Shown: positions 8,458-36,090 of the stretch, one piece after another
Layout of the letters: every line of letters begins with the position of its first letter
How positions within the stretch are numbered: position 1 is the stretch's first letter
Sequence record: NC_073088
Reading direction: 5' to 3' (one strand)
Length of the DNA: 45,201 bases
Source of the DNA: Escherichia phage PC2
Position numbers and translations under genes: made by a program
Notes under the pieces: generated by a model
Told to the model about the DNA's origin: nothing
The model's input: the letters and a program-made list of their open reading frames with translations, nothing else
Database searches by the model: none

Positions 8458-10884
8458 TTATGCTTTAGACAGCGCCGCTACGGCAGCTTTCAATTCCTCC
8501 AGTTCACTACGCAACGACACCAGTTCTTCTTCCTGCTCTTTGCACACCTGCACTGCATAAGCGGCAATAGCGCCATAGTCGACCTGAAAGAAGCGCTGAC
8601 GACCCACCAGCTCCTCTCCGTCTTGCGTTGGCCCTGCGAGGTATTCGTGGTCCTCAAACGTGCTCACTGCTTCCGGCACAACGTCCATTACTTCCTGCGC
8701 AATAACCCCGGCGTAAGGCATACCGTCTTTTTTCAGGGTGTAGGTGTAACCGCCCATCTTAGCAAGGCCCGCGCGAGCGTTCTCGATCGGCTTGATGTTG
8801 TCCTTCAACTCGCGGTCCGATGACTGGTTTACCGTCGTGCAGTTTACCGTCCCGTTAACGCTCATCTGGCGCGTGCCGTTGCTGTTATACTGGGCGTAAA
8901 AAAGCCACCCCGGACCATCGTCAAGCCCAAACTCAATAACCGACGGGCGACCTGCCCCGTTACCCCACAATTTGAAGGTTGCTGGGTGTGACGAGTTGCC
9001 GTCGTTCTGCATTTTGAAATACTTGCCACTCGGACGGTTGATCTCTAAACTTGCGGCCTGAACGTATGCTTTACCCGCAAAATTCTTTGTACCAAGCACA
9101 ACGCCGTCCTTGATCAGCTCAACCTTACACGATGTAATATCGTTCAGGAATAAGGCGTTCGTCCCAGTGTCTTTCCCTAAAAACCAAAGACGTGTGCCTG
9201 CGGAGTTGTACCCTGTTACGTGCAGTGGTTGGTCGTTTGTTGACGCTGTTCCGTCGATACGAAATCCGCCATTAGCGGTTATAACTTTAATGCTGGGTAC
9301 GGTCATAGCAAATGTGCCGCTGGCTGCAAGCCCGTTATACGCGATCAGATTGTTGTCATACGCCAGTTCGCCGTTGTCACGAAGTTGAAAGTATTTATTA
9401 GATGCCGAGTTGTGAACAAATACATCTTTGGCGCCAGGTTTAATAGTTATGATCTTTCCGTCAACGGAAGCGCGCACCGCAGATCCAGTAATTACTCCAG
9501 AAAAAGTCGGCGACGACCCTGCGTTATACAACTCGTACCACTGCGACCATATTCCAGTAGCCGCGTTGTCTAGCCATCGAATCCAGCGCCGCCCGTTGCG
9601 GTATAATGTGTACGTCTGTACGCAACTCTTCGGGTCGTTAGCGCCAGTGCGCTGAACAAGTAGGCAACCTGCTTCCTGAAAGGGATAATTACGCTCCGGC
9701 GTTGCGTTGGCACTCAGGCCAGTATAATAAAATCCGGCCTTATCACCCTGAAGGTCGTTAAGGTCTTCGCTTACCAACGTTGCCCGGCGCTCGTGCATTG
9801 CCTGAAGATTGGCGCGCGCGCCCTGGTCGTTTGACGCACCTGTCCCACCGTCTCCGATCGCCACGTCCCCATTTGACCCCAGCTTCGCAAGCTCAATAGC
9901 GCTAACCCTTCCAGACGATCCGTTAATCGCGGCATTGTTTCCCGAGAAAACTTTAACGCGCGAGGTTTGCCAGTCAACGTTGATTGCAAAGAATGTATCC
10001 CCCGCGCCGCCACATACACCGGGTCCGTATCTGAAAGGGGTCATCTCACCGGCTTGGAACTGCGAAATATCATCAACGCGCCAAAAACCGCCTTTGACCG
10101 CATCGCGCAACCGCTTTAGCATATCCCTCACGCCAGTCGGAGCGTTTACGGTGACGCCCGCATACGGCACTTTCTGCGAGGCGTCCGCGCTGTTCGCAAA
10201 GCCTTCTGCCTCGTCGCGGAATCCTTTTGCCTGATCTTTAGCAGTTACGGCCTGCGACTTAGCAGTTACGGCCTGCGACTTAGCTGTCTCCGCGGCAGTC
10301 TTTGCGGACTCGGCTGCCGTCTTAGCTGTCTCGGCTTTGCCCTGTGCGGCCTCCGCCGCTGTTTTAGCTGTATTCGCGGTGTTCTTGAATCCTTCCGCCT
10401 CGTTACGGAAGCCTTGCGCCTGGTTTTTAGCCGTGATGGTCTGGTCTGCGATAGCCTGCAATTCAACCGGGTCTACATCTTTAAGCAGTTTAGACAGGTA
10501 GCCCCACGACATGCCCTGCACTACTTGACCGTTCGGCAGCGTGACCGAGATTTCCTCTTCTTCTCCGAAGATTGCGCGCCAGTTGTTCTCATCTGCGATC
10601 ATCAATCGCAGCGCTTTTTGCGCCTGGACGGTTACGCCCATCGTCGCCAGCGACATGGTATCGCGCTTAACGCCATCCCACGCAAGGCCGGTTGCCGTTG
10701 GGCCGTCGAACGGCAACACCAGCGTGAGCGCGGTTGCGCTTTCAATGGACGCGATCGCTACGGTGTAGGGGACTTGTCCTACCACCAGCGTTAAGAAGTC
10801 ACCAGCTTTAAACGCGGTAAACGTTGTGCCTACCCCTACAACCGCCTTGCTGTTATTCGTTACGGATAGAGTACCCGCTGCCAT
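8458..10884 (-). CDS. Tail fibre protein with C-terminal intramolecular-chaperone (endosialidase-chaperone-like) domain
   Basis: 808 aa; Ala/Lys/Thr heptad repeats in the shaft; C-terminus ...SSDRELKDNIKPIENA...GGYTYTLKK...GVIAQEV...; last gene of the tail operon; RBS GAGGA. Confidence 0.8.
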   Translation of the reverse strand: MAAGTLSVTNNSKAVVGVGTTFTAFKAGDFLTLVVGQVPYTVAIASIESATALTLVLPFDGPTATGLAWDGVKRDTMSLATMGVTVQAQKALRLMIADENNWRAIFGEEEEISVTLPNGQVVQGMSWGYLSKLLKDVDPVELQAIADQTITAKNQAQGFRNEAEGFKNTANTAKTAAEAAQGKAETAKTAAESAKTAAETAKSQAVTAKSQAVTAKDQAKGFRDEAEGFANSADASQKVPYAGVTVNAPTGVRDMLKRLRDAVKGGFWRVDDISQFQAGEMTPFRYGPGVCGGAGDTFFAINVDWQTSRVKVFSGNNAAINGSSGRVSAIELAKLGSNGDVAIGDGGTGASNDQGARANLQAMHERRATLVSEDLNDLQGDKAGFYYTGLSANATPERNYPFQEAGCLLVQRTGANDPKSCVQTYTLYRNGRRWIRWLDNAATGIWSQWYELYNAGSSPTFSGVITGSAVRASVDGKIITIKPGAKDVFVHNSASNKYFQLRDNGELAYDNNLIAYNGLAASGTFAMTVPSIKVITANGGFRIDGTASTNDQPLHVTGYNSAGTRLWFLGKDTGTNALFLNDITSCKVELIKDGVVLGTKNFAGKAYVQAASLEINRPSGKYFKMQNDGNSSHPATFKLWGNGAGRPSVIEFGLDDGPGWLFYAQYNSNGTRQMSVNGTVNCTTVNQSSDRELKDNIKPIENARAGLAKMGGYTYTLKKDGMPYAGVIAQEVMDVVPEAVSTFEDHEYLAGPTQDGEELVGRQRFFQVDYGAIAAYAVQVCKEQEEELVSLRSELEELKAAVAALSKA
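10240..10281. repeat. Perfect 21-bp tandem duplication inside the tail fibre gene
   Basis: AGCAGTTACGGCCTGCGACTT twice in tandem, encoding KSQAVTA twice; within a longer 21-nt periodic region (about 10225-10390). Confidence 0.8.
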
Positions 10885-10904
10885 AGCTAAATCCTCGTAA
10901 TTGG

Positions 10905-10932
10905 TTGCATTCCTGGTTGAGCGGTGTAATAC
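10905..10932 (+). promoter_or_regulatory. Candidate promoter (TTGCAT-N16-TAATAC) for the lipoprotein cassette
   Basis: Preceded by TTGGTTGCAT (10901-10910). Confidence 0.45.
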
Positions 10933-10963
10933 TAAAACTCAACCAAATATAGGGGATGATACC

Positions 10964-11185
10964 ATGAAAACTTTAATTATGATTTGTGCGGTTCTTTTGT
11001 CCGGTTGCGCCGTAGAACGCAACAACGGCGATTGCGTTACGGTTGCTTACGGTAGCTGCATGTTGCGCTACGTTGACGGGCAAAAAGTCCCGGCAGGAGA
11101 TGTAGACATGCGATTCACTGGGCTGTCATCCGATAGCGACGGCAACTTCTCAGGCACAGTATCAGTTAAATCACGGGAGTGGTAA
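10964..11185 (+). CDS. Small lipoprotein (candidate superinfection-exclusion, Cor/Llp-like)
   Basis: 73 aa; signal peptide with lipobox LLSGC; opposite strand to the tail genes, between tail fibre and J; own promoter at 10905-10932. Confidence 0.6.
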   Translation: MKTLIMICAVLLSGCAVERNNGDCVTVAYGSCMLRYVDGQKVPAGDVDMRFTGLSSDSDGNFSGTVSVKSREW

Positions 11186-11187
11186 TA

Positions 11188-12153
11188 ATGGGCGCTGGAA
11201 TACTTATCGACTATAACGACGGCAGGCCGGTAATGGAGATAACCGCGGGACTCCGCGCTCCGTCATACTGCACCAGCTTTAACCAGCGGGCACAGTCCAA
11301 CAAGACGCTAACCATTAACACCCCGCTTACGGAGGGGTCACAGGTCGTCGTCGCGCTCACTCGCCCGGTAGAGGTGATTGAAGTGTTCGACCAGACCCTG
11401 GTAATACCTGATCCGTTTTACGTTACGTCGGTTACTCGCAACGGTAATAGTGGTATCACCCTGCGCGGGGATGATGCGTATGGCGCGTACTCAGGTTTAC
11501 CACAATGGGCGGGCGTAATAATGGAAGTGCTGCCGGTTGGGTCGCGCAACGCGGGCTTGCTGGTGGCGAACTCGACTGACTTCACGGCAATATCCAACGT
11601 GGCAAAGCTGATGACCTGCCGATACGCGAAGCGTGTGCGCGTCAACGGGAGTATGACCTTGCCAGTTAGCGGTGTCCCGTTCGCCCGCTGGGATGACGGC
11701 AATGTATCAGTAGGCTTCGATGGCGGCAGTATTATCGTCCGCAACGCGTCCTATGGTGGTATCGACGATGTGGCGGCTTCGGTGGACATGGACCTTGTAA
11801 TATTCAACAACACGCCACCCACTCCGGGGGCGGGTATCACCATGACGAACAACCAGAATCAGGTCACGTTCTCGACCGTGAACAAGCCGTTCGTATATGA
11901 CCGCACTATTAACCTCGGAACGGGCGACCAGAATATTGGAAACAGCCTGATCCAGCTTTCATACACCGGCGCGCTGATTCAGAACAACGGAGGCTATAAC
12001 CACGTCCGCATGAACGGTATTCGCATGGCGGGTAATAATGTGCGTGTTGCCAAAAACCGCGTCATCGGCAACTACTCGCGGCAGCAATTCCAGATGCCAG
12101 GTAAAAATATTGCAGTACCAACACCGCTACTCGTCATCCCGAATATGTATTGA
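11188..12153 (+). CDS. Beta-rich, Asn/Gly/Thr-rich protein of unknown function (candidate receptor-binding or exclusion-associated protein)
   Basis: 321 aa; start ATG after GGGAG RBS, 2 nt after the lipoprotein stop; fibre-like composition; followed by a GGGGCC hairpin. Confidence 0.5.
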   Translation: MGAGILIDYNDGRPVMEITAGLRAPSYCTSFNQRAQSNKTLTINTPLTEGSQVVVALTRPVEVIEVFDQTLVIPDPFYVTSVTRNGNSGITLRGDDAYGAYSGLPQWAGVIMEVLPVGSRNAGLLVANSTDFTAISNVAKLMTCRYAKRVRVNGSMTLPVSGVPFARWDDGNVSVGFDGGSIIVRNASYGGIDDVAASVDMDLVIFNNTPPTPGAGITMTNNQNQVTFSTVNKPFVYDRTINLGTGDQNIGNSLIQLSYTGALIQNNGGYNHVRMNGIRMAGNNVRVAKNRVIGNYSRQQFQMPGKNIAVPTPLLVIPNMY

Positions 12154-12157
12154 AAAT

Positions 12158-12173
12158 GGGGCCAGATGGCCCC
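12158..12173. terminator. Hairpin (GGGGCC-AGAT-GGCCCC) between convergent genes, weak U-tracts
   Basis: Between ORF 11188-12153 (+) and the J-like gene (-). Confidence 0.5.
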
Positions 12174-12180
12174 ATCGCAT

Positions 12181-15100
12181 TTACCACGTCCCGACTTTCA
12201 CCCTTCCCCCGCCAGGTAACGGCACGTTTACTCCTGTCTCGTCAATCGTCACGGTCCCACCAGAGAATCCGAAGTTACCGGATGTGGCGTACAGGTTGCC
12301 GCGGACCGTTACCTCGTTAAACTCCGCAGCGCCGCCTTTCTGGATACGCCAGCCGCGTGACCCGGAAGCGAAGTTATTTGATTGAAGCGTGTCCGTGATC
12401 TGTGCAAAGTTGATTGACGCATCCTTGATGCGTGCCGTGTCGATGTACACCTGCCCGCCGTCAACGATAAACGCGGACGAAAGCGACCCATTAGATGGGT
12501 GCATGATATAGAACTGGTCTGCTTTGAACGCAATACGCGATTTAACTGCGTTGCCAGACGTCACAACTGAAAGCTGCATACCGGCGTCATAGTAAGTCCC
12601 ATTATACGTCACGCCAGCCTTAAGACTGTACGTGGCGCTGCCACCCGCATGGTTAAACGAAGACGTCATCTTCTGCTCGATCGCGGCGGACTGCTGACCG
12701 AACTGCGCCGCGACCTGGGTCTTATACTCCGCCAGCGCGCCAGCCACGTCCGCCGTTGCCGTTTGTACCTGCTGGATGGCTGCTTCCTGTTCCGAAAACT
12801 TAGCGGCAACAGTTTGCTGGTACTGGGCGAACGCTTGTTCATGTGTGCTTTGCGCAGTCTGCAACGTGTGGATTGATGCTTCGGCGTCATCCAGGCGCGT
12901 GCCGATCAACGTTTCCAGTTGCGCTACGGCTTTATGCGCGTCCGCCGCCACGTTATACGCCACCGTGATTTCCGCGTAAATCCCTTTATACTCGGCGCGG
13001 GCATTGAATAGCTGCTGGGCGTCCGTAAGCATAGACTCATAGATACCTTGCGGGATCGTGTTAATAGCTTCCTGGAAGTGTTTACCATCCTCGGAAGTCA
13101 AGAACTCGTTATCAAGCCCCTTCATGTACTCGTCAACTTTGTCGCTCACCTGCCCTTCAAACGGGGCCGACCAGTCCGACAGGTTGCCAATTTTATCCGC
13201 TACACGGGCGCGCAACTGCTGATAGATCCCGAACTCCAGTGACGTTTGCGCATACTCCGCCCCCGGGTATGGGACGTTGGACAGGAATTTCCATTCCGTC
13301 TCACCCGTCTTGCGCACTTCAAGCTCGGTGTAAGAGATATCCGTCGCGGCGTTGTTGTGGTTCCACTTCCACAAAATTTGGTGGAGGCCCGAAATCGCGT
13401 TGGTGATGATAGGCGCGTTAAGTCCGCCGAGACGACCTTCGATCGGCGTGATGGCAGACGACACCCACGGGGATGAAATCTCGCCCATACCGATTGCGCG
13501 GACGCGTGCCTGGTAGTTACCGGAGAACACGTTAGGGATGTGCGCGCCGTTCGATGCCGTGTGGGGGATGTTCACCCAGTCGTTACCCCACTGGATTTCC
13601 ATATTCTGCAAGCTGGTACGTCGCCACTGGATTTCATACACCACGGCATCCTTCACCGGCGGGAATACAATATCAACGTTGGTGATTAGCTGGCCTTGCG
13701 ATGAAATCTGCGACGGGGTGATGGTCACGGACTCCGGCCCCTTCATTACGCCGTCAGGCACTTGAGTAAAGATGCCCGGATCAAGGCGAGCGCCATTATC
13801 AACGGCATCATATTTGCTATCGTTGTACTCGATCCCGCGCACTGAAAAAGTGCTGGTAGAGTCGTCATATTCCAGGTCGGTGATGCGGAACTTCTGCAAC
13901 TGGATATCGTTGCCATCGACGCAAAACGGCTGATCAGGAATCGGGTCGGCATCCAGTGCGGTTTTTAGAGTGACCTTGTTGCCGTTGACGCTGGCGATCT
14001 CGCGGGTCTCCACATTACCGCTATCGGTGCGCACCAGGAACTTATCGCCTTGGCGGAACGTGATTTCGCTGTCCGTGTTCAGCACGGTACGCGTTCCAGG
14101 GTCTGACAACAGGCGACCGCCGCGAGTCTCGAATCCACCAGAAATATTAGTATCCGCGATCGCGACTACGCTACCGGGGATAAAGAATAACCCCTCCATG
14201 CCAACCTTAAAACTAACTTGCTGGTCAAGCTGGTTTGAGATTAGCGCCCAGTGCCCCCGGCGTTGCGCTTCTGACTCTCGCGTACAGCCGATCGCCGTAA
14301 TATCAAGACGGTTAATCTTATGGCGGCGCACCAGTTCGACGCGCTGGCCCGTTGCGATGGCGTCATCGTAGTGGTTTTTCGGATTGCCGTATGCTACCGC
14401 GAATGTGGAATAGCGAGTTTTCTGGCTGCCAGATGCGTAGTCGAATCGCCCATCAATAACAGATGCGTTGGTGATAGTGTGCGACACTGCTGCGACCGGT
14501 TGGTCACTGACAATATTCAACATCTGGTTTCCCCACCAGGTCATTCCGGCGAAGATGGCGGCTAAATCCTTAAGCACGGTCCAGGCATCCGTCTGTGACT
14601 GAATGTACATATCATTCTTAAAGCGGATTTCTCGACCACCGTTGCCGTCGCTGACCAACTGATCGCAGCGCTGCGCAATCTGGTAGAGCGCGTATCGGTT
14701 TAGCATTTGCGGTTTGATACGCCGACCGAGGCCGAAGCGCTCAGTAATACAAATATCGTACCAGTGCCACGCAGGGTTATCCGTCCATGCGCGTTTAAAC
14801 GTGCCGTCCCAGTCCCCGGAATAGGTATGATTGATCGGGTCGTAGTTGTTCGGTATTAGAACTTTGCGACCTTTGCACTTAATGGACACGCGCGGGATGT
14901 TCTGGAACGCTTTAGCGTCGAACTCCACAAACAACAGCGCGGTTAGCGGGTAACGCAGGCGGGCGTCGATAATCTCAGTGATGGATTGCACCCGGATATC
15001 ATTAACCACTTTCGCCGATGTGGAGTCTGCCGTTATGCGGTGCACCTCCACTCGCCAGCCGGTGTTCACGTTCGGCGGTAATTCGATGCGGTGGTCGCGC

Positions 15101-15627
15101 TCATATAGCGACATTGTTTTACCAACGGCGGCGAATCTGAACTCACGCGGGTCGGCGTTATCCGTATACACAACGATCTTATAGTCGATGCGCCCGCCCA
15201 CCAGGTCGCCGTTATCTTCGTTAGTGTACAGGGCCGGAATGCCGATGCGAATGCGAACGGCGTCCAGACTGGTATCGTTAATCTGGCGCACCCACGGCGT
15301 GCCGTTTTCCAGTTTTACGCCGACAGATTGCTCACTTTCCACCGCTGAAAATCCGTGGATCACATCCTGGTGCTGTGTTCCTGGGCGGAACTCCACACGC
15401 GCCCCAGGGAAGTTTTCAGACAGGTCTGCATTCTGGATCGGTGTTCCGTCCAGATATACGCGCCGCCGTAATTCGTTAGGGTCTGGAATACCTTCGAACT
15501 CACCTTCTCCCAGCGCAAGCAAGATGCGGATTTTAGCCAGAGAATGCAGGCTATCGGGTGTCTCCTGTGGGGTGTGCTGTTTGCCACCGCCGCCTTTATG
15601 ACCCGTGACGTCGTAAATAATCGTCAT
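12181..15627 (-). CDS. Tail tip / central tail fibre protein, lambda J-like
   Basis: 1148 aa; N-terminus ...GGGGKQHTPQETPDSLHSLAKIRILLALGEGEFEG resembles the lambda J N-terminus; follows I-K-L-M. Confidence 0.9.
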   Translation of the reverse strand: MTIIYDVTGHKGGGGKQHTPQETPDSLHSLAKIRILLALGEGEFEGIPDPNELRRRVYLDGTPIQNADLSENFPGARVEFRPGTQHQDVIHGFSAVESEQSVGVKLENGTPWVRQINDTSLDAVRIRIGIPALYTNEDNGDLVGGRIDYKIVVYTDNADPREFRFAAVGKTMSLYERDHRIELPPNVNTGWRVEVHRITADSTSAKVVNDIRVQSITEIIDARLRYPLTALLFVEFDAKAFQNIPRVSIKCKGRKVLIPNNYDPINHTYSGDWDGTFKRAWTDNPAWHWYDICITERFGLGRRIKPQMLNRYALYQIAQRCDQLVSDGNGGREIRFKNDMYIQSQTDAWTVLKDLAAIFAGMTWWGNQMLNIVSDQPVAAVSHTITNASVIDGRFDYASGSQKTRYSTFAVAYGNPKNHYDDAIATGQRVELVRRHKINRLDITAIGCTRESEAQRRGHWALISNQLDQQVSFKVGMEGLFFIPGSVVAIADTNISGGFETRGGRLLSDPGTRTVLNTDSEITFRQGDKFLVRTDSGNVETREIASVNGNKVTLKTALDADPIPDQPFCVDGNDIQLQKFRITDLEYDDSTSTFSVRGIEYNDSKYDAVDNGARLDPGIFTQVPDGVMKGPESVTITPSQISSQGQLITNVDIVFPPVKDAVVYEIQWRRTSLQNMEIQWGNDWVNIPHTASNGAHIPNVFSGNYQARVRAIGMGEISSPWVSSAITPIEGRLGGLNAPIITNAISGLHQILWKWNHNNAATDISYTELEVRKTGETEWKFLSNVPYPGAEYAQTSLEFGIYQQLRARVADKIGNLSDWSAPFEGQVSDKVDEYMKGLDNEFLTSEDGKHFQEAINTIPQGIYESMLTDAQQLFNARAEYKGIYAEITVAYNVAADAHKAVAQLETLIGTRLDDAEASIHTLQTAQSTHEQAFAQYQQTVAAKFSEQEAAIQQVQTATADVAGALAEYKTQVAAQFGQQSAAIEQKMTSSFNHAGGSATYSLKAGVTYNGTYYDAGMQLSVVTSGNAVKSRIAFKADQFYIMHPSNGSLSSAFIVDGGQVYIDTARIKDASINFAQITDTLQSNNFASGSRGWRIQKGGAAEFNEVTVRGNLYATSGNFGFSGGTVTIDETGVNVPLPGGGRVKVGTW

Positions 15628-21754: not shown

Positions 21755-22107
21755 TCACGCAATCCCATCAGTTCGAGATAGTACGAAGTGTGGAACACGC
21801 CGAACGCGCGCGGATAGTTGACCACCAGGCGGCGGACGTTCTCCGCGTTAAATTCGTCCGGCAGATTCCAGCCTTCTGCGACGTGCATGATGGCCTCGAC
21901 CATAACGTTAAAGCCGTCCGGGTCATTGTCGTCATATTCCGACAACTTGCGCTCAGTATCCTGCATGGTCTGCGAAAATTCGTCTATAGGGCGGTGGCGC
22001 ACGGTGAACGTCATTTTGCCTGGTTCGTTTTCGCCGGGGCGCGGGATTTCAATCGGCAGCTTAAAAGTCGGCTTAGGGTCAAGTGTAAAGAGTGGTGCTT
22101 TAGCCAT
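21745..22107 (-). CDS. Tail assembly chaperone, lambda G-like
   Basis: 120 aa from ATG 22107 (RBS GGAGA 7 nt upstream; the ORF track opens at TTG 22122); ends ...MGLREKN* at the slippery heptamer. Confidence 0.8.
   Translation of the reverse strand: MAKAPLFTLDPKPTFKLPIEIPRPGENEPGKMTFTVRHRPIDEFSQTMQDTERKLSEYDDNDPDGFNVMVEAIMHVAEGWNLPDEFNAENVRRLVVNYPRAFGVFHTSYYLELMGLREKN
21748..21754 (-). other. Programmed -1 ribosomal frameshift slippery heptamer A AAA AAC
   Basis: Minus strand reads CGT GAA AAA AAC TAA in the G frame; A_AAA_AAC lies 3 nt before the G stop; -1 frame continues KKLIEAARRFYGPPPP... Confidence 0.8.
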
Positions 22108-22123
22108 TGTAGTATTCTCCAAT

Positions 22124-22146
22124 AAAAAAGGGGCCGTACTGGCCCC
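22124..22146 (-). terminator. Strong intrinsic terminator after the major tail protein gene
   Basis: Minus strand GGGGCC-AGTAC-GGCCCC followed by TTTTTT, just upstream of the G chaperone RBS. Confidence 0.8.
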
Positions 22147-22176
22147 ATATTAACACCCGCTATTTAAGCGACCAAA

Positions 22177-22902
22177 TTACGACAGCGCTTCAACCAGGTC
22201 CTTACGGTAAATAACCATATCGGATTGCATGGTCAGAGTGGACTTCACCGTCTCCACGTTGTTTACTTCAGCCGATGGAATCTTCTGGAAAGACACCTTA
22301 GCCGGGTAAATGCGGATCTCACCTTTGCCGCTTGCCGCTGCCGGGTTGGTGAACTTAATCACAGTGGTTTTCTGTGTGTCGTCCAGGTCTTCCAGAATCG
22401 GGCGGATCGGGTCTTCTTCGTCGTGGGTGAAAGTGTAGGTCTGGACCAACGGGTTTCTCGTGGTGTTCAGACTGATCGCGGTATTCACCTGCAACGGCTG
22501 GAAGGTGGTGGTCTGCTGGTCGCCACCCGACACGGCAACGTTAGTGATATACGGGAAGTCGATAAAATTCGACACTTTCACCACTTCGCCTGGGGTTCCC
22601 GCCCCAAAAGCACCGGCAGGATATTTGGTGACGTCCGAGGTGTCGAAGCGCGCCAGCGTAACGTCGTTAGTCGCCACTTTACCCACGATGAACGCGCGGT
22701 TCCGCGCACGGACCCACGGGGTTTTAGTGAACATAACCACGTCACCAACTTTCAAGCCATGAGAAGCCGCGCAGGAGATAACGCACCCTTTCGTAAGATC
22801 AGAGATCGACGCGGCGGCGTTGGTAGCTGCCGTAACAGCGATACCTTTGCCAAGTACGGACCCAATCTGGACGCTAGACCCGTTAGGAAGTTGATAACCC
22901 AT
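22177..22902 (-). CDS. Major tail protein
   Basis: 241 aa immediately upstream of G/G-T; followed by a strong intrinsic terminator, as expected for a high-copy tube protein. Confidence 0.75.
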   Translation of the reverse strand: MGYQLPNGSSVQIGSVLGKGIAVTAATNAAASISDLTKGCVISCAASHGLKVGDVVMFTKTPWVRARNRAFIVGKVATNDVTLARFDTSDVTKYPAGAFGAGTPGEVVKVSNFIDFPYITNVAVSGGDQQTTTFQPLQVNTAISLNTTRNPLVQTYTFTHDEEDPIRPILEDLDDTQKTTVIKFTNPAAASGKGEIRIYPAKVSFQKIPSAEVNNVETVKSTLTMQSDMVIYRKDLVEALS

Positions 22903-34895: not shown

Positions 34896-35063
34896 TTACG
34901 CTGCGGGGCCGGATTCCGTCTGCGGTGGTGGGCTTGGCAGCTTCGCATCGAAGACGCCTGCATGGCTGATAGTGTCCGCGATGATAGCGCGTGCGCCGGG
35001 GTCTTCGGTTTTAGCCAGCGCGGCGAGCGCGTCGGCGTTATGATCAAGAATGCTTTTTAACAT
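34896..35063 (-). CDS. Small ORF between endolysin and terminator
   Basis: 55 aa (MLKSILDHNADALAALAKTEDPGARAIIADTISHAGVFDAKLPSPPPQTESGPAA); RBS GAGG about 9 nt upstream; not in the ORF track (<60 aa). Confidence 0.3.
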   Translation of the reverse strand: MLKSILDHNADALAALAKTEDPGARAIIADTISHAGVFDAKLPSPPPQTESGPAA

Positions 35064-35079: not shown

Positions 35080-35571
35080 TTATGCAGCGTTACGCCCGAT
35101 CTTCTCGGCAACGTCCCACTGCTTACCATCAAACAACGCCTGTCTGCCGATTGCACGGCGTACCAGACCCTTAAGCACTTCCCCGCCTTGCTTGCGGAAC
35201 TGCGGCAGAGTAGCACGGACCTTCGCCCAGTCGCCCAGTCGCACCGCATCATCGAAATCATTCGCGATGTTATCCGGTACGATCGGACCTTGACCGGCAT
35301 TGATTACCAGGTCCACCAGCGCGTCGAATTGCGCCTGGTTAATGCTCGGATGTGCGTATTTGTTCACCCAGTCCTCGGCATACGCCACATCTCGCTTGAG
35401 CAGTTCCAGCGCTTCCGCACGGGTAATGCTTCGAGGCGGGTTAGTGCCGGTATGACCATAACCCCAGGTGTACAGGCCGCGGGCCTGCTCTTTCTTAGTC
35501 GCGAAATACGGCACTGGGCTGAAAGTCTCCCATGCTGCCGTAAATCGTAGACCGTTATCACTGAATCGCAT
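35080..35571 (-). CDS. Endolysin, T4 lysozyme-like (GH24 family)
   Basis: 163 aa; motif GLRFTAAWETF...YTWGYGHTG parallels T4 lysozyme [21 protein letters not shown]; directly after the holin-like genes. Confidence 0.85.
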   Translation of the reverse strand: MRFSDNGLRFTAAWETFSPVPYFATKKEQARGLYTWGYGHTGTNPPRSITRAEALELLKRDVAYAEDWVNKYAHPSINQAQFDALVDLVINAGQGPIVPDNIANDFDDAVRLGDWAKVRATLPQFRKQGGEVLKGLVRRAIGRQALFDGKQWDVAEKIGRNAA

Positions 35572-35803
35572 GTTTTACCCCATTCAAAACAGCATTACGC
35601 AGGGTGCGCAATGCAAACAGCCAGATTAACGCGGTCCAGGTGGTATCAGATACGTCTCCTGTTTGCAACAATCCGATAAGACAGATCATTGCCGTTAACA
35701 GATACAGCACCCGGCCTAAGATACCATCCTGAACGGACGGCGCATATACGTTAAACAGGGACGAAGCCCCGATGATAACAAACAACAGGACGGAGATAAT
35801 CAT
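35558..35803 (-). CDS. Holin / antiholin-like small membrane protein
   Basis: 81 aa with 2-3 predicted transmembrane segments; ATGA overlap with upstream holin; overlaps endolysin start by 14 nt. Confidence 0.5.
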   Translation of the reverse strand: MIISVLLFVIIGASSLFNVYAPSVQDGILGRVLYLLTAMICLIGLLQTGDVSDTTWTALIWLFALRTLRNAVLNGVKHAIQ

Positions 35804-36090
35804 TTTGCACCCCCCGGAAGTCGGAACGACGCAATAGTCTCCCTGATCCGGTCGGCGATTGGCATCCAGAAGATTGCGGTTACGAAGCCCAAACCGGCGA
35901 CAGTGCGCTCACCCGACAAACCAGCCCACTCGGCAATAGCCGGTGCGCCAAATATGGCACACAGGAAGCCAACTACAACATACAAAACGAAGTTTAGCGG
36001 CCCCTTCGTAGCCTCACCATGAATGCGTGCGCCTACGAAGCCACCCGCCAGACATGCCAGGGCGAATAGCCACTCGTTTAGCTTATCCAT
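35800..36090 (-). CDS. Holin
   Basis: 96 aa with about 3 hydrophobic segments and a charged C-terminus; first gene of the holin-endolysin block. Confidence 0.55.
   Translation of the reverse strand: MDKLNEWLFALACLAGGFVGARIHGEATKGPLNFVLYVVVGFLCAIFGAPAIAEWAGLSGERTVAGLGFVTAIFWMPIADRIRETIASFRLPGGAK

What the first reader, a model, noticed from the sequence alone, without database searches (positions are those of the whole stretch)
10901..12173. Plus-strand lipoprotein and beta-rich protein between the tail fibre and J genes
A 73-aa lipoprotein (lipobox LLSGC) and a 321-aa Asn/Gly/Thr-rich protein are transcribed against the tail operon from their own promoter and end at a hairpin. In T5-like and T1-like phages, a small lipoprotein beside the receptor-binding locus blocks the receptor in the infected cell (Llp, Cor). 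The lipoprotein here is a plausible analogue. The partner protein could be a receptor-binding protein or part of the exclusion function; I cannot tell which.
Basis: partly seen in the sequence, partly recalled or inferred. Interest (0 to 1): 0.6.

Follow-up and report, generated by a model that had tools for sequence, protein, structure and literature searches.

The report
Known LptD receptor-binding and exclusion cassette
These two genes are the already-described host-recognition cassette of a Dhillonvirus coliphage: a tail-tip protein that binds the essential outer-membrane LPS exporter LptD, and a small lipoprotein predicted to block that receptor in infected cells. The feature is real but ordinary.

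Summary
A 73-aa lipoprotein gene (10964..11185, +) and a 321-aa gene (11188..12153, +) lie inverted between the lateral tail fibre gene (8458..10884, -) and the J-like tail tip gene (12181..15627, -). They end at a conserved hairpin (12156-12175).

The window is an almost complete Dhillonvirus genome, about 95% identical to phage vB_EcoS_SD276.

The 321-aa protein is 315/321 identical to the receptor-binding protein of phage Oekolampad (Bas18). That protein's cryo-EM structure bound to the LptDE lipopolysaccharide translocon is solved (PDB 9RPT; Dunbar et al., PNAS 2025).

The lipoprotein is 72/73 identical to Oekolampad bas18_0026 ("SEOeko") and 36% identical to Rtp45. Rtp45 is the exclusion lipoprotein whose structure on the periplasmic side of LptDE is solved (PDB 9RPS). 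The lipobox cysteine and the Rtp45 disulfide pair are both conserved.

Maffei et al. (2021) had already described this "RBP locus downstream of gpJ" and assigned LptD as the receptor.

The only untested step is the exclusion activity of this particular lipoprotein.

Verdict: already known, low interest. One side lead: phiEco32-like podoviruses carry both families unlinked.

The parts
10905..10933 (+). Predicted sigma-70 promoter of the cassette: -35 TTGCAT (10905-10910), 17-nt spacer, extended -10 TG-t-AATACT (TG 10925-10926, hexamer 10928-10933). Prediction only.
   Evidence: Found by the permissive scan. The TTGCA, TG and AATACT positions are invariant in 6 Dhillonvirus relatives. The strict consensus scan did not find it. 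Unrelated Drexlerviridae carrying the same cassette also have a promoter-like site 29-40 nt upstream of the lipoprotein ATG.
10914..10945 (.). Perfect 8-bp inverted repeat TGGTTGAG / CTCAACCA with a 16-nt spacer. It brackets the predicted -10. Possibly an operator or a 5'-leader hairpin; function unknown.
   Evidence: unique in the window, with 0 expected by chance in 100 shuffles. It is mostly conserved in relatives. PEC9 has one compensatory T-A to C-G change, and three phages have single disruptive changes.
10964..11185 (+). Superinfection-exclusion lipoprotein gene (73-aa precursor, 59-aa mature; Rtp45/SEOeko family). Lipobox LSG-C15, Ala at +2 (predicted sorting to the outer membrane), conserved Cys24/Cys32 pair.
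   Evidence: Pfam PF24052 E 1.5e-21 and phrog_4281 E 1.6e-33. 72/73 identical to Oekolampad bas18_0026. PDB 9RPS_D (Rtp45) E 1.5e-8. 36% identical to Rtp45. Invariant C15, C24, C32, G22, G30, G39, G45, D48, R50, G53 and E72-W73 across 7 homologues.
11188..12153 (+). Receptor-binding protein gene (321 aa, DUF6453 family, LptD-specific allele). Probably translationally coupled to the lipoprotein gene, with a 2-nt gap.
   Evidence: Pfam PF20051 E 1.1e-120. PDB 9RPT_C E 8e-209. 315/321 identical to Oekolampad bas18_0025; the substitutions are V15R, E49A, T157A, A215T, L243I and G246S. 33% identical to Rtp44. No transmembrane segment: maximum KD19 is 1.2.
12156..12175 (.). GC-rich hairpin between the convergent stop codons of the receptor-binding protein gene (12153) and J (12181). 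Probable bidirectional intrinsic terminator, stronger for the J transcript because the T-run is on the minus strand.
   Evidence: dG -16.5 kcal/mol. Stem invariant and loop variable in 7 phages. Annotated as a terminator on both strands in phage Chapo.
12181..15627 (-). J-like central tail fibre / tail tip protein (1148 aa). Presumed docking platform for the receptor-binding protein.
   Evidence: Pfam FNIII-A_GpJ, Phage-tail_3 and Phage_Tail_Tip. 97% identical to Oekolampad J. The docking role is taken from Maffei 2021, not tested here.
8458..10884 (-). Context only: lateral tail fibre (808 aa) with a C-terminal S74 intramolecular chaperone domain. This is the separate, glycan-directed fibre, not part of the cassette.
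   Evidence: Pfam Peptidase_S74 E 2.4e-13 and PHROG tail fibre families. Its role is taken from the BASEL papers.

Best explanation
This is the LptD-type host-recognition cassette of a Dhillonvirus siphophage.

The 321-aa protein is the terminal receptor-binding protein (RBP). [quoted passage not shown] This gives irreversible adsorption.

The 73-aa protein made from the same transcript is a Lol-sorted outer-membrane lipoprotein of the Rtp45 family. In the infected cell it binds LptDE from the periplasmic side and pushes a hairpin up the barrel lumen. That displaces EL4, so the RBP of incoming phage, or of progeny meeting cell debris, can no longer bind. This is superinfection exclusion and progeny protection by steric displacement.

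Shown for near-identical or homologous proteins in the literature:
- RBP-LptDE binding and LptD-dependent infection, for Oekolampad.
- Rtp45-LptDE binding and EL4 displacement, for Rtp.

Inferred here:
- This phage uses LptD.
- This lipoprotein, only 36% identical to Rtp45, acts in the same way.
- The two genes are co-transcribed from the predicted promoter.
- The RBP docks on J.
For: - The RBP is 98.1% identical over its full length to the Oekolampad RBP solved with LptDE (PDB 9RPT/9RPW/9RQI).
- The lipoprotein is 99% identical to Oekolampad SEOeko. It is homologous to Rtp45 (PDB 9RPS_D, E 1.5e-8; 36% identity). The lipobox Cys is conserved, as are both cysteines that align with the Rtp45 Cys30-Cys38 disulfide.
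- Pfam PF24052 and PF20051 match far above the gathering thresholds.
- Same position and orientation as in Oekolampad, Rtp, Chapo, IME542 and 12397IV: J, then a hairpin, then the inverted RBP gene preceded by the lipoprotein gene.
- J is 97% identical to Oekolampad J.
- Literature: allelic variants of this locus match receptor specificity without exception, and Bas18-resistant mutants map to lptD (PMC8594841).
- Literature: cryo-EM of RBPOeko-LptDE; the LptD point mutants D352Y and Y671N abolish binding and infection; the Rtp45-LptDE structure gives the steric exclusion mechanism (PMC12685063).
- Literature: independent confirmation that a DUF6453-type family at this locus tracks LptD (bioRxiv 10.64898/2026.04.02.716166).
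Against: - Nothing was tested on this phage itself.
- The authors of the structural paper could not express SEOeko, the 99%-identical lipoprotein. Its binding to LptDE rests on 35-36% identity to Rtp45.
- I could not read Wietzorrek et al. 2006. I therefore cannot cite an exclusion phenotype for Rtp45 in vivo; the structural paper infers exclusion from the structure.
- Six substitutions separate this RBP from the solved one, and I could not map them onto the interface.
- Some LptD-type phages need a second receptor (Bas01 needs NupG through its J tip). LptD may not be the only requirement.
- The promoter is a weak consensus match and there are no expression data.
Confidence: 0.9

Rival explanations
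1. The lipoprotein is a member of the Cor (T1/phi80/N15) or Llp (T5) family and blocks FhuA. The phage would then be FhuA-dependent.
For: A small lipoprotein beside the receptor-binding locus is the classic Cor/Llp arrangement. There is a weak PHROG hit to 'Cor superinfection exclusion protein', E 5.4e-4. Many Dhillonviruses are FhuA-dependent (PMC10373560).
Against: The Cor hit covers only residues 1-30, which is the signal peptide and lipobox. The best families are PF24052 and phrog_4281. No Llp family appears in the Pfam or PHROG results. The partner protein is the LptD-type allele, 98% identical to RBPOeko, not a FhuA-type RBP. Receptor type follows the allele at this locus.
Confidence: 0.02
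2. The lipoprotein is a lysis protein (a u-spanin or o-spanin), and the 321-aa protein is a membrane-protein 'moron'. Several database records label them this way.
For: Phage Chapo annotates the homologous lipoprotein as 'u-spanin'. PHROG 1265 and RefSeq call the 321-aa family 'membrane protein / moron'. I saw no Rz/Rz1 pair directly downstream of the endolysin in the window.
Against: A u-spanin needs a C-terminal transmembrane anchor. This protein ends in the hydrophilic ...SGTVSVKSREW, and its only hydrophobic stretch is the signal peptide. There is no adjacent i-spanin. The 321-aa protein has no transmembrane-grade hydrophobic segment: maximum KD19 is 1.2. Homologues of both proteins are solved bound to LptDE, one from outside and one from the periplasm. 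The cassette lies about 23 kb from the holin-endolysin genes at 35080-36090.
Confidence: 0.02
3. The RBP assignment is right, but this lipoprotein does not act as an Rtp45-like plug. It could be an assembly or chaperone factor for the RBP. It could also act on LptDE in another way, for example by inhibiting LPS export as a host-takeover function.
For: The two genes appear translationally coupled, with the lipoprotein first. That arrangement also fits a dedicated helper. Identity to Rtp45 is only 36%, and the C-terminal half differs by an insertion/deletion. SEOeko could not be expressed, so there are no direct data. Rtp45 occupies the LptD lumen, so an effect on LPS transport has not been excluded.
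Against: A lipoprotein exported to the periplasm cannot chaperone a cytoplasmic virion protein. All family-invariant residues are present, including the disulfide pair and the strand that pairs with LptD in Rtp45. In Klebsiella phages and phiEco32-like phages the lipoprotein gene is unlinked from the RBP gene. That argues against an obligate assembly role and fits a host-directed function.
Confidence: 0.06

Closest known systems
Phage Oekolampad (Bas18, Dhillonvirus): bas18_0025 (RBPOeko, PDB 9RPT/9RPW/9RQI) and bas18_0026 (SEOeko)
   Same: Same genus, locus, order and orientation. The receptor-binding protein (RBP) is 315/321 identical, the lipoprotein 72/73 and J 97%. The cassette DNA is 93.6% identical.
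   Different: There are six conservative-to-moderate substitutions in the RBP and one in the lipoprotein. The lateral tail fibre differs: 808 aa here against 606 aa in Oekolampad. Primary (glycan) host range probably differs while the terminal receptor does not.
Phage Rtp (Drexlerviridae): Rtp44 (RBP) and Rtp45 (exclusion lipoprotein, PDB 9RPS)
   Same: Same two Pfam families and the same inverted two-gene arrangement next to the J homologue. The lipobox, disulfide cysteines and C-terminal KEW motif are conserved. Rtp45 supplies the mechanism for exclusion.
   Different: Identity is only 33% for the RBP and 36% for the lipoprotein. Rtp belongs to a different phage family. The middle and C-terminal part of the lipoprotein differs in length.
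Phage T5 pb5 (RBP) and Llp (exclusion lipoprotein) acting on FhuA
   Same: Same logic. A monomeric RBP at the tip of a siphophage tail binds an outer-membrane barrel protein, and a small periplasm-facing lipoprotein encoded next to it makes the receptor unable to bind the RBP (PMC9586334; summarised).
   Different: No sequence relationship was detected. The receptor is FhuA, not LptD. Llp works by long-range allostery through a TonB-dependent transporter, whereas Rtp45 works by steric displacement of EL4.
Cor lipoproteins of T1, phi80, N15 and HK022 (FhuA exclusion)
   Same: A small outer-membrane lipoprotein encoded at or near the tail fibre/J region that inactivates the phage's own receptor.
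   Different: The only similarity is the signal peptide: PHROG Cor hit over residues 1-30, E 5e-4. The mature parts are unrelated, and the target is FhuA.

Membership tests
LptD-specific receptor-binding protein (RBP) of small siphophages (Pfam PF20051/DUF6453; RBPOeko/Rtp44 family) | Full-length sequence match to the family profile above the curated threshold | tested here: met
   PF20051 scores 402.9 bits against a cut-off of 25, E 1.1e-120, covering residues 4-297 of 321. phrog_1265 E 4.6e-122.
LptD-specific receptor-binding protein (RBP) of small siphophages (Pfam PF20051/DUF6453; RBPOeko/Rtp44 family) | Close similarity to a member whose complex with LptDE is experimentally solved | tested here: met
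   PDB 9RPT_C E 8e-209, end to end. 315/321 identical to bas18_0025.
LptD-specific receptor-binding protein (RBP) of small siphophages (Pfam PF20051/DUF6453; RBPOeko/Rtp44 family) | [quoted passage not shown] 2021) | tested here: met
   The RBP stop is at 12153 and the J stop at 12181, convergent and separated only by the hairpin. The layout is the same in 9 related phages.
LptD-specific receptor-binding protein (RBP) of small siphophages (Pfam PF20051/DUF6453; RBPOeko/Rtp44 family) | Binds LptDE, and infection depends on LptD | not testable with these tools
   Shown for Oekolampad. Inferred here from 98% identity.
LptD-specific receptor-binding protein (RBP) of small siphophages (Pfam PF20051/DUF6453; RBPOeko/Rtp44 family) | Present in the virion at the tail tip | not testable with these tools
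   No proteomic or structural data on virions were available to me. The docking on J is the literature's model.
Rtp45-type superinfection-exclusion lipoprotein (Pfam PF24052 Phage_lipoprotein) | Sequence match to the family profile above the curated threshold | tested here: met
   PF24052 scores 76.6 bits against a cut-off of 27, E 1.5e-21, covering residues 3-73. PDB 9RPS_D E 1.5e-8.
Rtp45-type superinfection-exclusion lipoprotein (Pfam PF24052 Phage_lipoprotein) | Signal peptide with a lipobox and an acylated Cys; no inner-membrane retention signal at +2 | tested here: met
   The sequence is MKTLIMICAVLLSG-C15-A16. The lipobox Cys is invariant in 7 homologues. Outer-membrane sorting is inferred from the E. 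coli +2 rule.
Rtp45-type superinfection-exclusion lipoprotein (Pfam PF24052 Phage_lipoprotein) | The cysteine pair that forms the Rtp45 Cys30-Cys38 disulfide, plus the strand between them that pairs with LptD | tested here: met
   Window Cys24 and Cys32 align with Rtp45 Cys30 and Cys38. Both are invariant in 7 homologues. Formation of the disulfide itself was not tested.
Rtp45-type superinfection-exclusion lipoprotein (Pfam PF24052 Phage_lipoprotein) | Binds the periplasmic face of LptDE and prevents RBP binding or phage adsorption | not testable with these tools
   Shown structurally for Rtp45 only. Expression of the 99%-identical SEOeko failed in the published study.
Cor superinfection-exclusion lipoproteins (FhuA) | Homology of the mature protein to Cor | tested here: not met
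   The PHROG 1119 hit has E 5.4e-4 and covers only residues 1-30, the signal peptide. There is no Pfam Cor hit.
Unimolecular spanin (T1 gp11 type) | N-terminal lipobox plus a C-terminal transmembrane anchor; located in the lysis cassette | tested here: not met
   There is no C-terminal hydrophobic segment; the last 20 residues are LSSDSDGNFSGTVSVKSREW. The gene lies about 23 kb from the holin and endolysin genes.

The most novel reading that the evidence does not exclude
The two families of this cassette are not confined to T1-like and Dhillonvirus siphophages.

In phiEco32-like podoviruses (Gordonclarkvirinae), 99 phage records carry a DUF6453 homologue inside the tail/ejection gene block. 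An example is phi32_21: Pfam E 1.2e-23, and PDB 9RPT_C at E 2e-9. In the same group, 97 records with the same organism breakdown carry a PF24052 lipoprotein about 45 kb away. An example is Bas87_0096: Pfam E 6.5e-36, and PDB 9RPS_D at E 1.5e-15.

The reading my evidence does not exclude is that this pair is a portable LptD recognition-and-exclusion system that crosses virion morphotypes. LptD would then be the so far unrecognised terminal receptor of these podoviruses. No paper I could search says this. Their receptors are currently described as O-antigen plus LPS core.

This concerns relatives, not the window itself, where everything is as already published.
Probability: 0.35. Interest if true: 0.5.

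Novelty: already known. Interest (0 to 1): 0.1.

Why it matters
For this window, the result turns two genes that most records annotate poorly into a confident functional call. Databases label them 'hypothetical', 'membrane protein/moron' or 'u-spanin', or do not annotate them at all.

The call predicts that the phage's terminal receptor is LptD. It also predicts that LptD loop mutations (EL4, EL5, EL11) are the route to resistance, and that infected cells exclude LptD-dependent phages. This is useful for choosing phages for a cocktail and for predicting receptors, but it adds nothing conceptually new.

The one real gap in the field is direct evidence that the Dhillonvirus-type lipoprotein, 36% identical to Rtp45, binds LptDE and excludes phage. 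The published attempt to express it failed.

Tried and rejected
- Single-sequence AlphaFold2 of the 321-aa protein gave mean pLDDT 30 and pTM 0.20. The model is unusable, so I ran no fold search. A solved structure of a 98%-identical protein makes one unnecessary.
- NCBIfam has no model for either protein.
- Rfam (gathering thresholds) and ARAGORN found nothing anywhere in the window.
- The strict promoter/terminator scan found no promoter in the 79-nt intergenic region and missed the hairpin, because its T-run has fewer than 5 T in 8. A permissive scan plus conservation analysis was used instead.
- Wietzorrek et al. 2006, the Rtp genome paper that first described Rtp45, is not in the library. 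I make no claim from it beyond what the PNAS paper cites.
- The Cor/Llp family, spanin and 'membrane protein moron' readings were considered and rejected (see the rival explanations).
- I did not run the large protein-database searches (search for homologous proteins, the search of protein representatives) or the metagenome scans. The phage-genome collection and the PDB already gave near-identical characterised relatives.
- My first family scans used coordinates one base off and returned errors. One DNA query was one base too long.
Full report
**1. What is in the sequence**

The region holds two tightly packed plus-strand genes.
- The first runs from ATG 10964 to TAA 11185 and encodes 73 aa, MKTLIMICAVLLSGCAVERNNGDC.... 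It has a classical lipobox (L-S-G-C15) and Ala at +2.
- The finding's start coordinate, 10901, is only the upstream TTG of the maximal ORF. An AGGGGA ribosome-binding site lies 7 nt before ATG 10964.
- The second gene starts two bases after the first stop codon. It runs from ATG 11188 to TGA 12153 and encodes 321 aa, with GGGAG 8 nt upstream.
- Its composition is V 10.6, G 10.3, N 9.7, T 7.8%. It has no transmembrane-grade hydrophobic segment: the maximum Kyte-Doolittle 19-residue average is 1.2.

Both genes are inverted relative to their neighbours.
- One neighbour is an 808-aa lateral tail fibre with an S74 chaperone domain (8458..10884, minus strand).
- The other is a 1148-aa J-like tail tip protein (12181..15627, minus strand).

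An 8-bp GC-rich hairpin (12156-12175, -16.5 kcal/mol) fills the 27 nt between the convergent stop codons.
- In seven phages its GGGGCC/GGCCCC core is invariant while the loop varies.
- The T-run is on the minus-strand side. The hairpin is therefore first of all the J operon terminator, and at best bidirectional. Phage Chapo's annotators mark it that way.

The strict promoter scan found nothing usable in the 79-nt intergenic region.
- A permissive scan finds TTGCAT, a 17-nt spacer, then TG-t-AATACT at 10905-10933.
- Its key positions are invariant in six Dhillonviruses.
- The promoter remains a prediction.

**2. What the window is**

- The cassette DNA matches 156 phage records. Sixty-two of them cover at least 80% of it, at up to 94.9% identity. 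Nearly all are Escherichia or Shigella phages of the genus Dhillonvirus.
- A 24-kb stretch is 94.9% identical to phage vB_EcoS_SD276 over its full length.
- The gene order of that genome matches the window's ORF map.
- The window is therefore essentially a whole Dhillonvirus genome.

**3. What the two proteins are**

The 321-aa protein:
- It matches Pfam DUF6453 (PF20051) at E 1.1e-120.
- It matches one solved protein end to end, PDB 9RPT chain C, at E 8e-209.
- That chain is the receptor-binding protein of phage Oekolampad (Bas18). The window protein differs from bas18_0025 at six of 321 positions.

The lipoprotein:
- It matches Pfam PF24052 'Phage lipoprotein family' at E 1.5e-21.
- It is 72/73 identical to Oekolampad bas18_0026.
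- It matches PDB 9RPS chain D, Rtp45 of phage Rtp, at E 1.5e-8. Identity to Rtp45 is 36%.
- In a seven-member alignment the invariant residues are the lipobox Cys; the two cysteines aligning with the Rtp45 Cys30-Cys38 disulfide (Cys24 and Cys32 here); several glycines; D48; R50; and the C-terminal E-W.
- The stretch that forms a beta-sheet with LptD in Rtp45 (residues 30-35) aligns with residues 24-29 here.

Other comparisons:
- The window's J protein is 97% identical to Oekolampad J.
- The receptor-binding protein is 33% identical to Rtp44. This is the same figure the literature gives for RBPOeko against Rtp44.

**4. What the literature has already shown**

Maffei et al. 2021 (PMC8594841):
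- They described 'bona fide RBP loci' directly downstream of gpJ in Drexlerviridae, Dhillonvirus, Nonagvirus and Seuratvirus.
- They proposed that these loci encode a dedicated receptor-binding protein plus a cognate superinfection-exclusion protein.
- They found that locus alleles match receptor specificity without exception.
- They mapped resistance to Oekolampad to lptD.

Dunbar et al. 2025 (PMC12685063):
- They solved RBPOeko bound deep in the lumen of an open state of LptDE. The interface is about 1,700 square angstroms and involves EL3-5 and EL11.
- They showed that LptD D352Y and Y671N abolish both binding and infection.
- They solved Rtp45 bound to the periplasmic side of LptDE, between LptE and LptM. 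A hairpin protrudes up the lumen and displaces EL4 by up to 20 angstroms, which is incompatible with binding of the receptor-binding protein.
- They state that they could not express SEOeko, and that they assume it acts like Rtp45.

A 2026 preprint confirms independently that one protein family at this locus tracks LptD. The second BASEL paper predicts LptD for further Dhillonvirus isolates carrying this allele.

**5. Mechanism, with its status**

- Shown for near-identical or homologous proteins: the receptor-binding protein binds LptDE, Oekolampad infection depends on LptD, and Rtp45 binds LptDE and rearranges EL4.
- Inferred from 98% identity: this phage adsorbs irreversibly to LptD through the 321-aa protein, carried on the J tip.
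- Inferred from family membership and conserved key residues: the lipoprotein is processed at Cys15 and sorted to the inner leaflet of the outer membrane (the E. coli +2 rule). It then plugs LptDE from below, so that superinfecting phage and released progeny cannot bind.
- Inferred from the anatomy: the two genes form one transcription unit with coupled translation, starting from a promoter at about 10905-10933.
- I put the receptor-binding assignment at about 0.95, the exclusion assignment at about 0.8, and the whole picture at 0.9.

**6. Rivals**

- Cor or Llp family membership is rejected. The only Cor signal is the signal peptide, and the receptor type is LptD.
- 'u-spanin' (Chapo's annotation) fails for lack of a C-terminal membrane anchor, and because the gene lies far from the lysis genes.
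- 'Membrane protein / moron' (the PHROG and RefSeq label) fails on hydropathy and on the solved structure.
- A non-exclusion role for the lipoprotein cannot be excluded without experiments, but it is unlikely. In other phage groups the lipoprotein gene is unlinked from the receptor-binding protein gene, which fits a host-directed function and argues against a role in assembly.

**7. Comparison and novelty**

- The cassette works like T5 pb5/Llp and T1 Cor in its logic.
- By membership it belongs to the RBPOeko/Rtp44 and Rtp45 families. Every sequence-level defining feature I could test was met. The biochemical ones cannot be tested here.
- It is already known.

**8. Things seen on the way**

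- The receptor-binding protein family occurs in 433 phage records and the lipoprotein family in 321.
- In E. coli Drexlerviridae the cassette has the same inverted layout.
- In Salmonella phage S107 and Klebsiella Webervirus phages, the receptor-binding protein homologue follows J on the same strand with no adjacent lipoprotein. In Klebsiella phages the lipoprotein homologue lies about 10 kb away.
- PhiEco32-like podoviruses carry distant but significant homologues of both proteins, about 45 kb apart, in 99 and 97 records respectively with the same organism breakdown. No paper I could search links these phages to LptD. This is the only part of the work with some novelty, and it lies outside the window.

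Noticed in passing
L008 2159-3187 (phiEco32 phi32_21) and L009 1474-1797 (Bas87_0096); related records: PhiEco32-like podoviruses (Gordonclarkvirinae) carry homologues of both cassette proteins, unlinked and about 45 kb apart. One is a DUF6453 protein inside the tail/ejection gene block (Pfam E 1.2e-23; PDB 9RPT_C E 2e-9). The other is a PF24052 lipoprotein (Pfam E 6.5e-36; PDB 9RPS_D E 1.5e-15). At E<=1e-20 they occur in 99 and 97 records, with the same organism breakdown. This suggests LptD as an unrecognised terminal receptor with Rtp45-like exclusion. No paper in the library says so.
   Followed up: partly
L004 1501-2457 (Salmonella phage S107); L007 1501-2454 (Klebsiella phage KW1.2); Klebsiella phages phi1_146036 and NJR15: In these phages the receptor-binding protein homologue follows J on the same strand, with no lipoprotein ORF within 1.5 kb. 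In the Klebsiella phages phi1_146036 and NJR15 the lipoprotein homologue (41% identity) lies about 10 kb away. The inverted two-gene cassette is therefore one of at least three arrangements of the same two families.
   Followed up: partly
window 10914-10945: A perfect 8-bp inverted repeat, TGGTTGAG-16 nt-CTCAACCA, brackets the predicted -10 of the cassette promoter in the divergent intergenic region. It is unique in the window. It is mostly conserved in relatives, with one compensatory T-A to C-G change in PEC9 and single disruptive changes in three other phages. It may be an operator shared by divergent promoters or a leader hairpin; I could not resolve which.
   Followed up: partly
window 34896-35063 (-), compared with L002 43410-43823: The ORF just downstream of the endolysin encodes only 55 aa here, against 137 aa in the closest genome, SD276. 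The N-terminal 44 residues are identical. About 246 nt are then missing, including what looks by eye like an Ig-like C-terminal domain; I did not run a family search on it. I also saw no Rz/Rz1-like spanin pair directly after the endolysin.
   Followed up: partly
window 8458-10884 (-): The lateral tail fibre is 808 aa, with a coiled-coil-like alanine-rich repeat region and a C-terminal S74 chaperone domain. SD276 has the same gene length, but Oekolampad's fibre is 606 aa. The terminal-receptor cassette and the glycan-binding fibre have evidently been reassorted independently.
   Followed up: no
database records: L002 (SD276) 22058-22360; L003 (Chapo) 1268-1498; Bas85_0027 in L013: Annotation problems in public records. 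SD276 leaves the lipoprotein ORF unannotated. Chapo calls it 'u-spanin'. The receptor-binding protein is labelled 'membrane protein; moron/auxiliary metabolic gene' in PHROG-based annotations and 'Tail fiber protein' in the PDB.
   Followed up: yes
(Acinetobacter phage NJ01 = L012; Campylobacter phages A120 and A127; Sodalis phage SO-1): Phages recorded with non-E. coli hosts (Acinetobacter baumannii, Campylobacter jejuni, Sodalis) carry related versions of this cassette. Cassette DNA is 85.6% identical in NJ01 and 92.9% in SO-1. The Campylobacter phages have proteins about 60-63% identical. The host labels may be unreliable, or these isolates may in fact grow on enterobacteria.
   Followed up: no
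MH706966.1 (temperate phage mEp021) 52682-52888: A temperate lambdoid phage, mEp021, encodes a lipoprotein 43% identical to the one in the window. An Rtp45-family gene in a prophage could give lysogens resistance to LptD-dependent phages.
   Followed up: no
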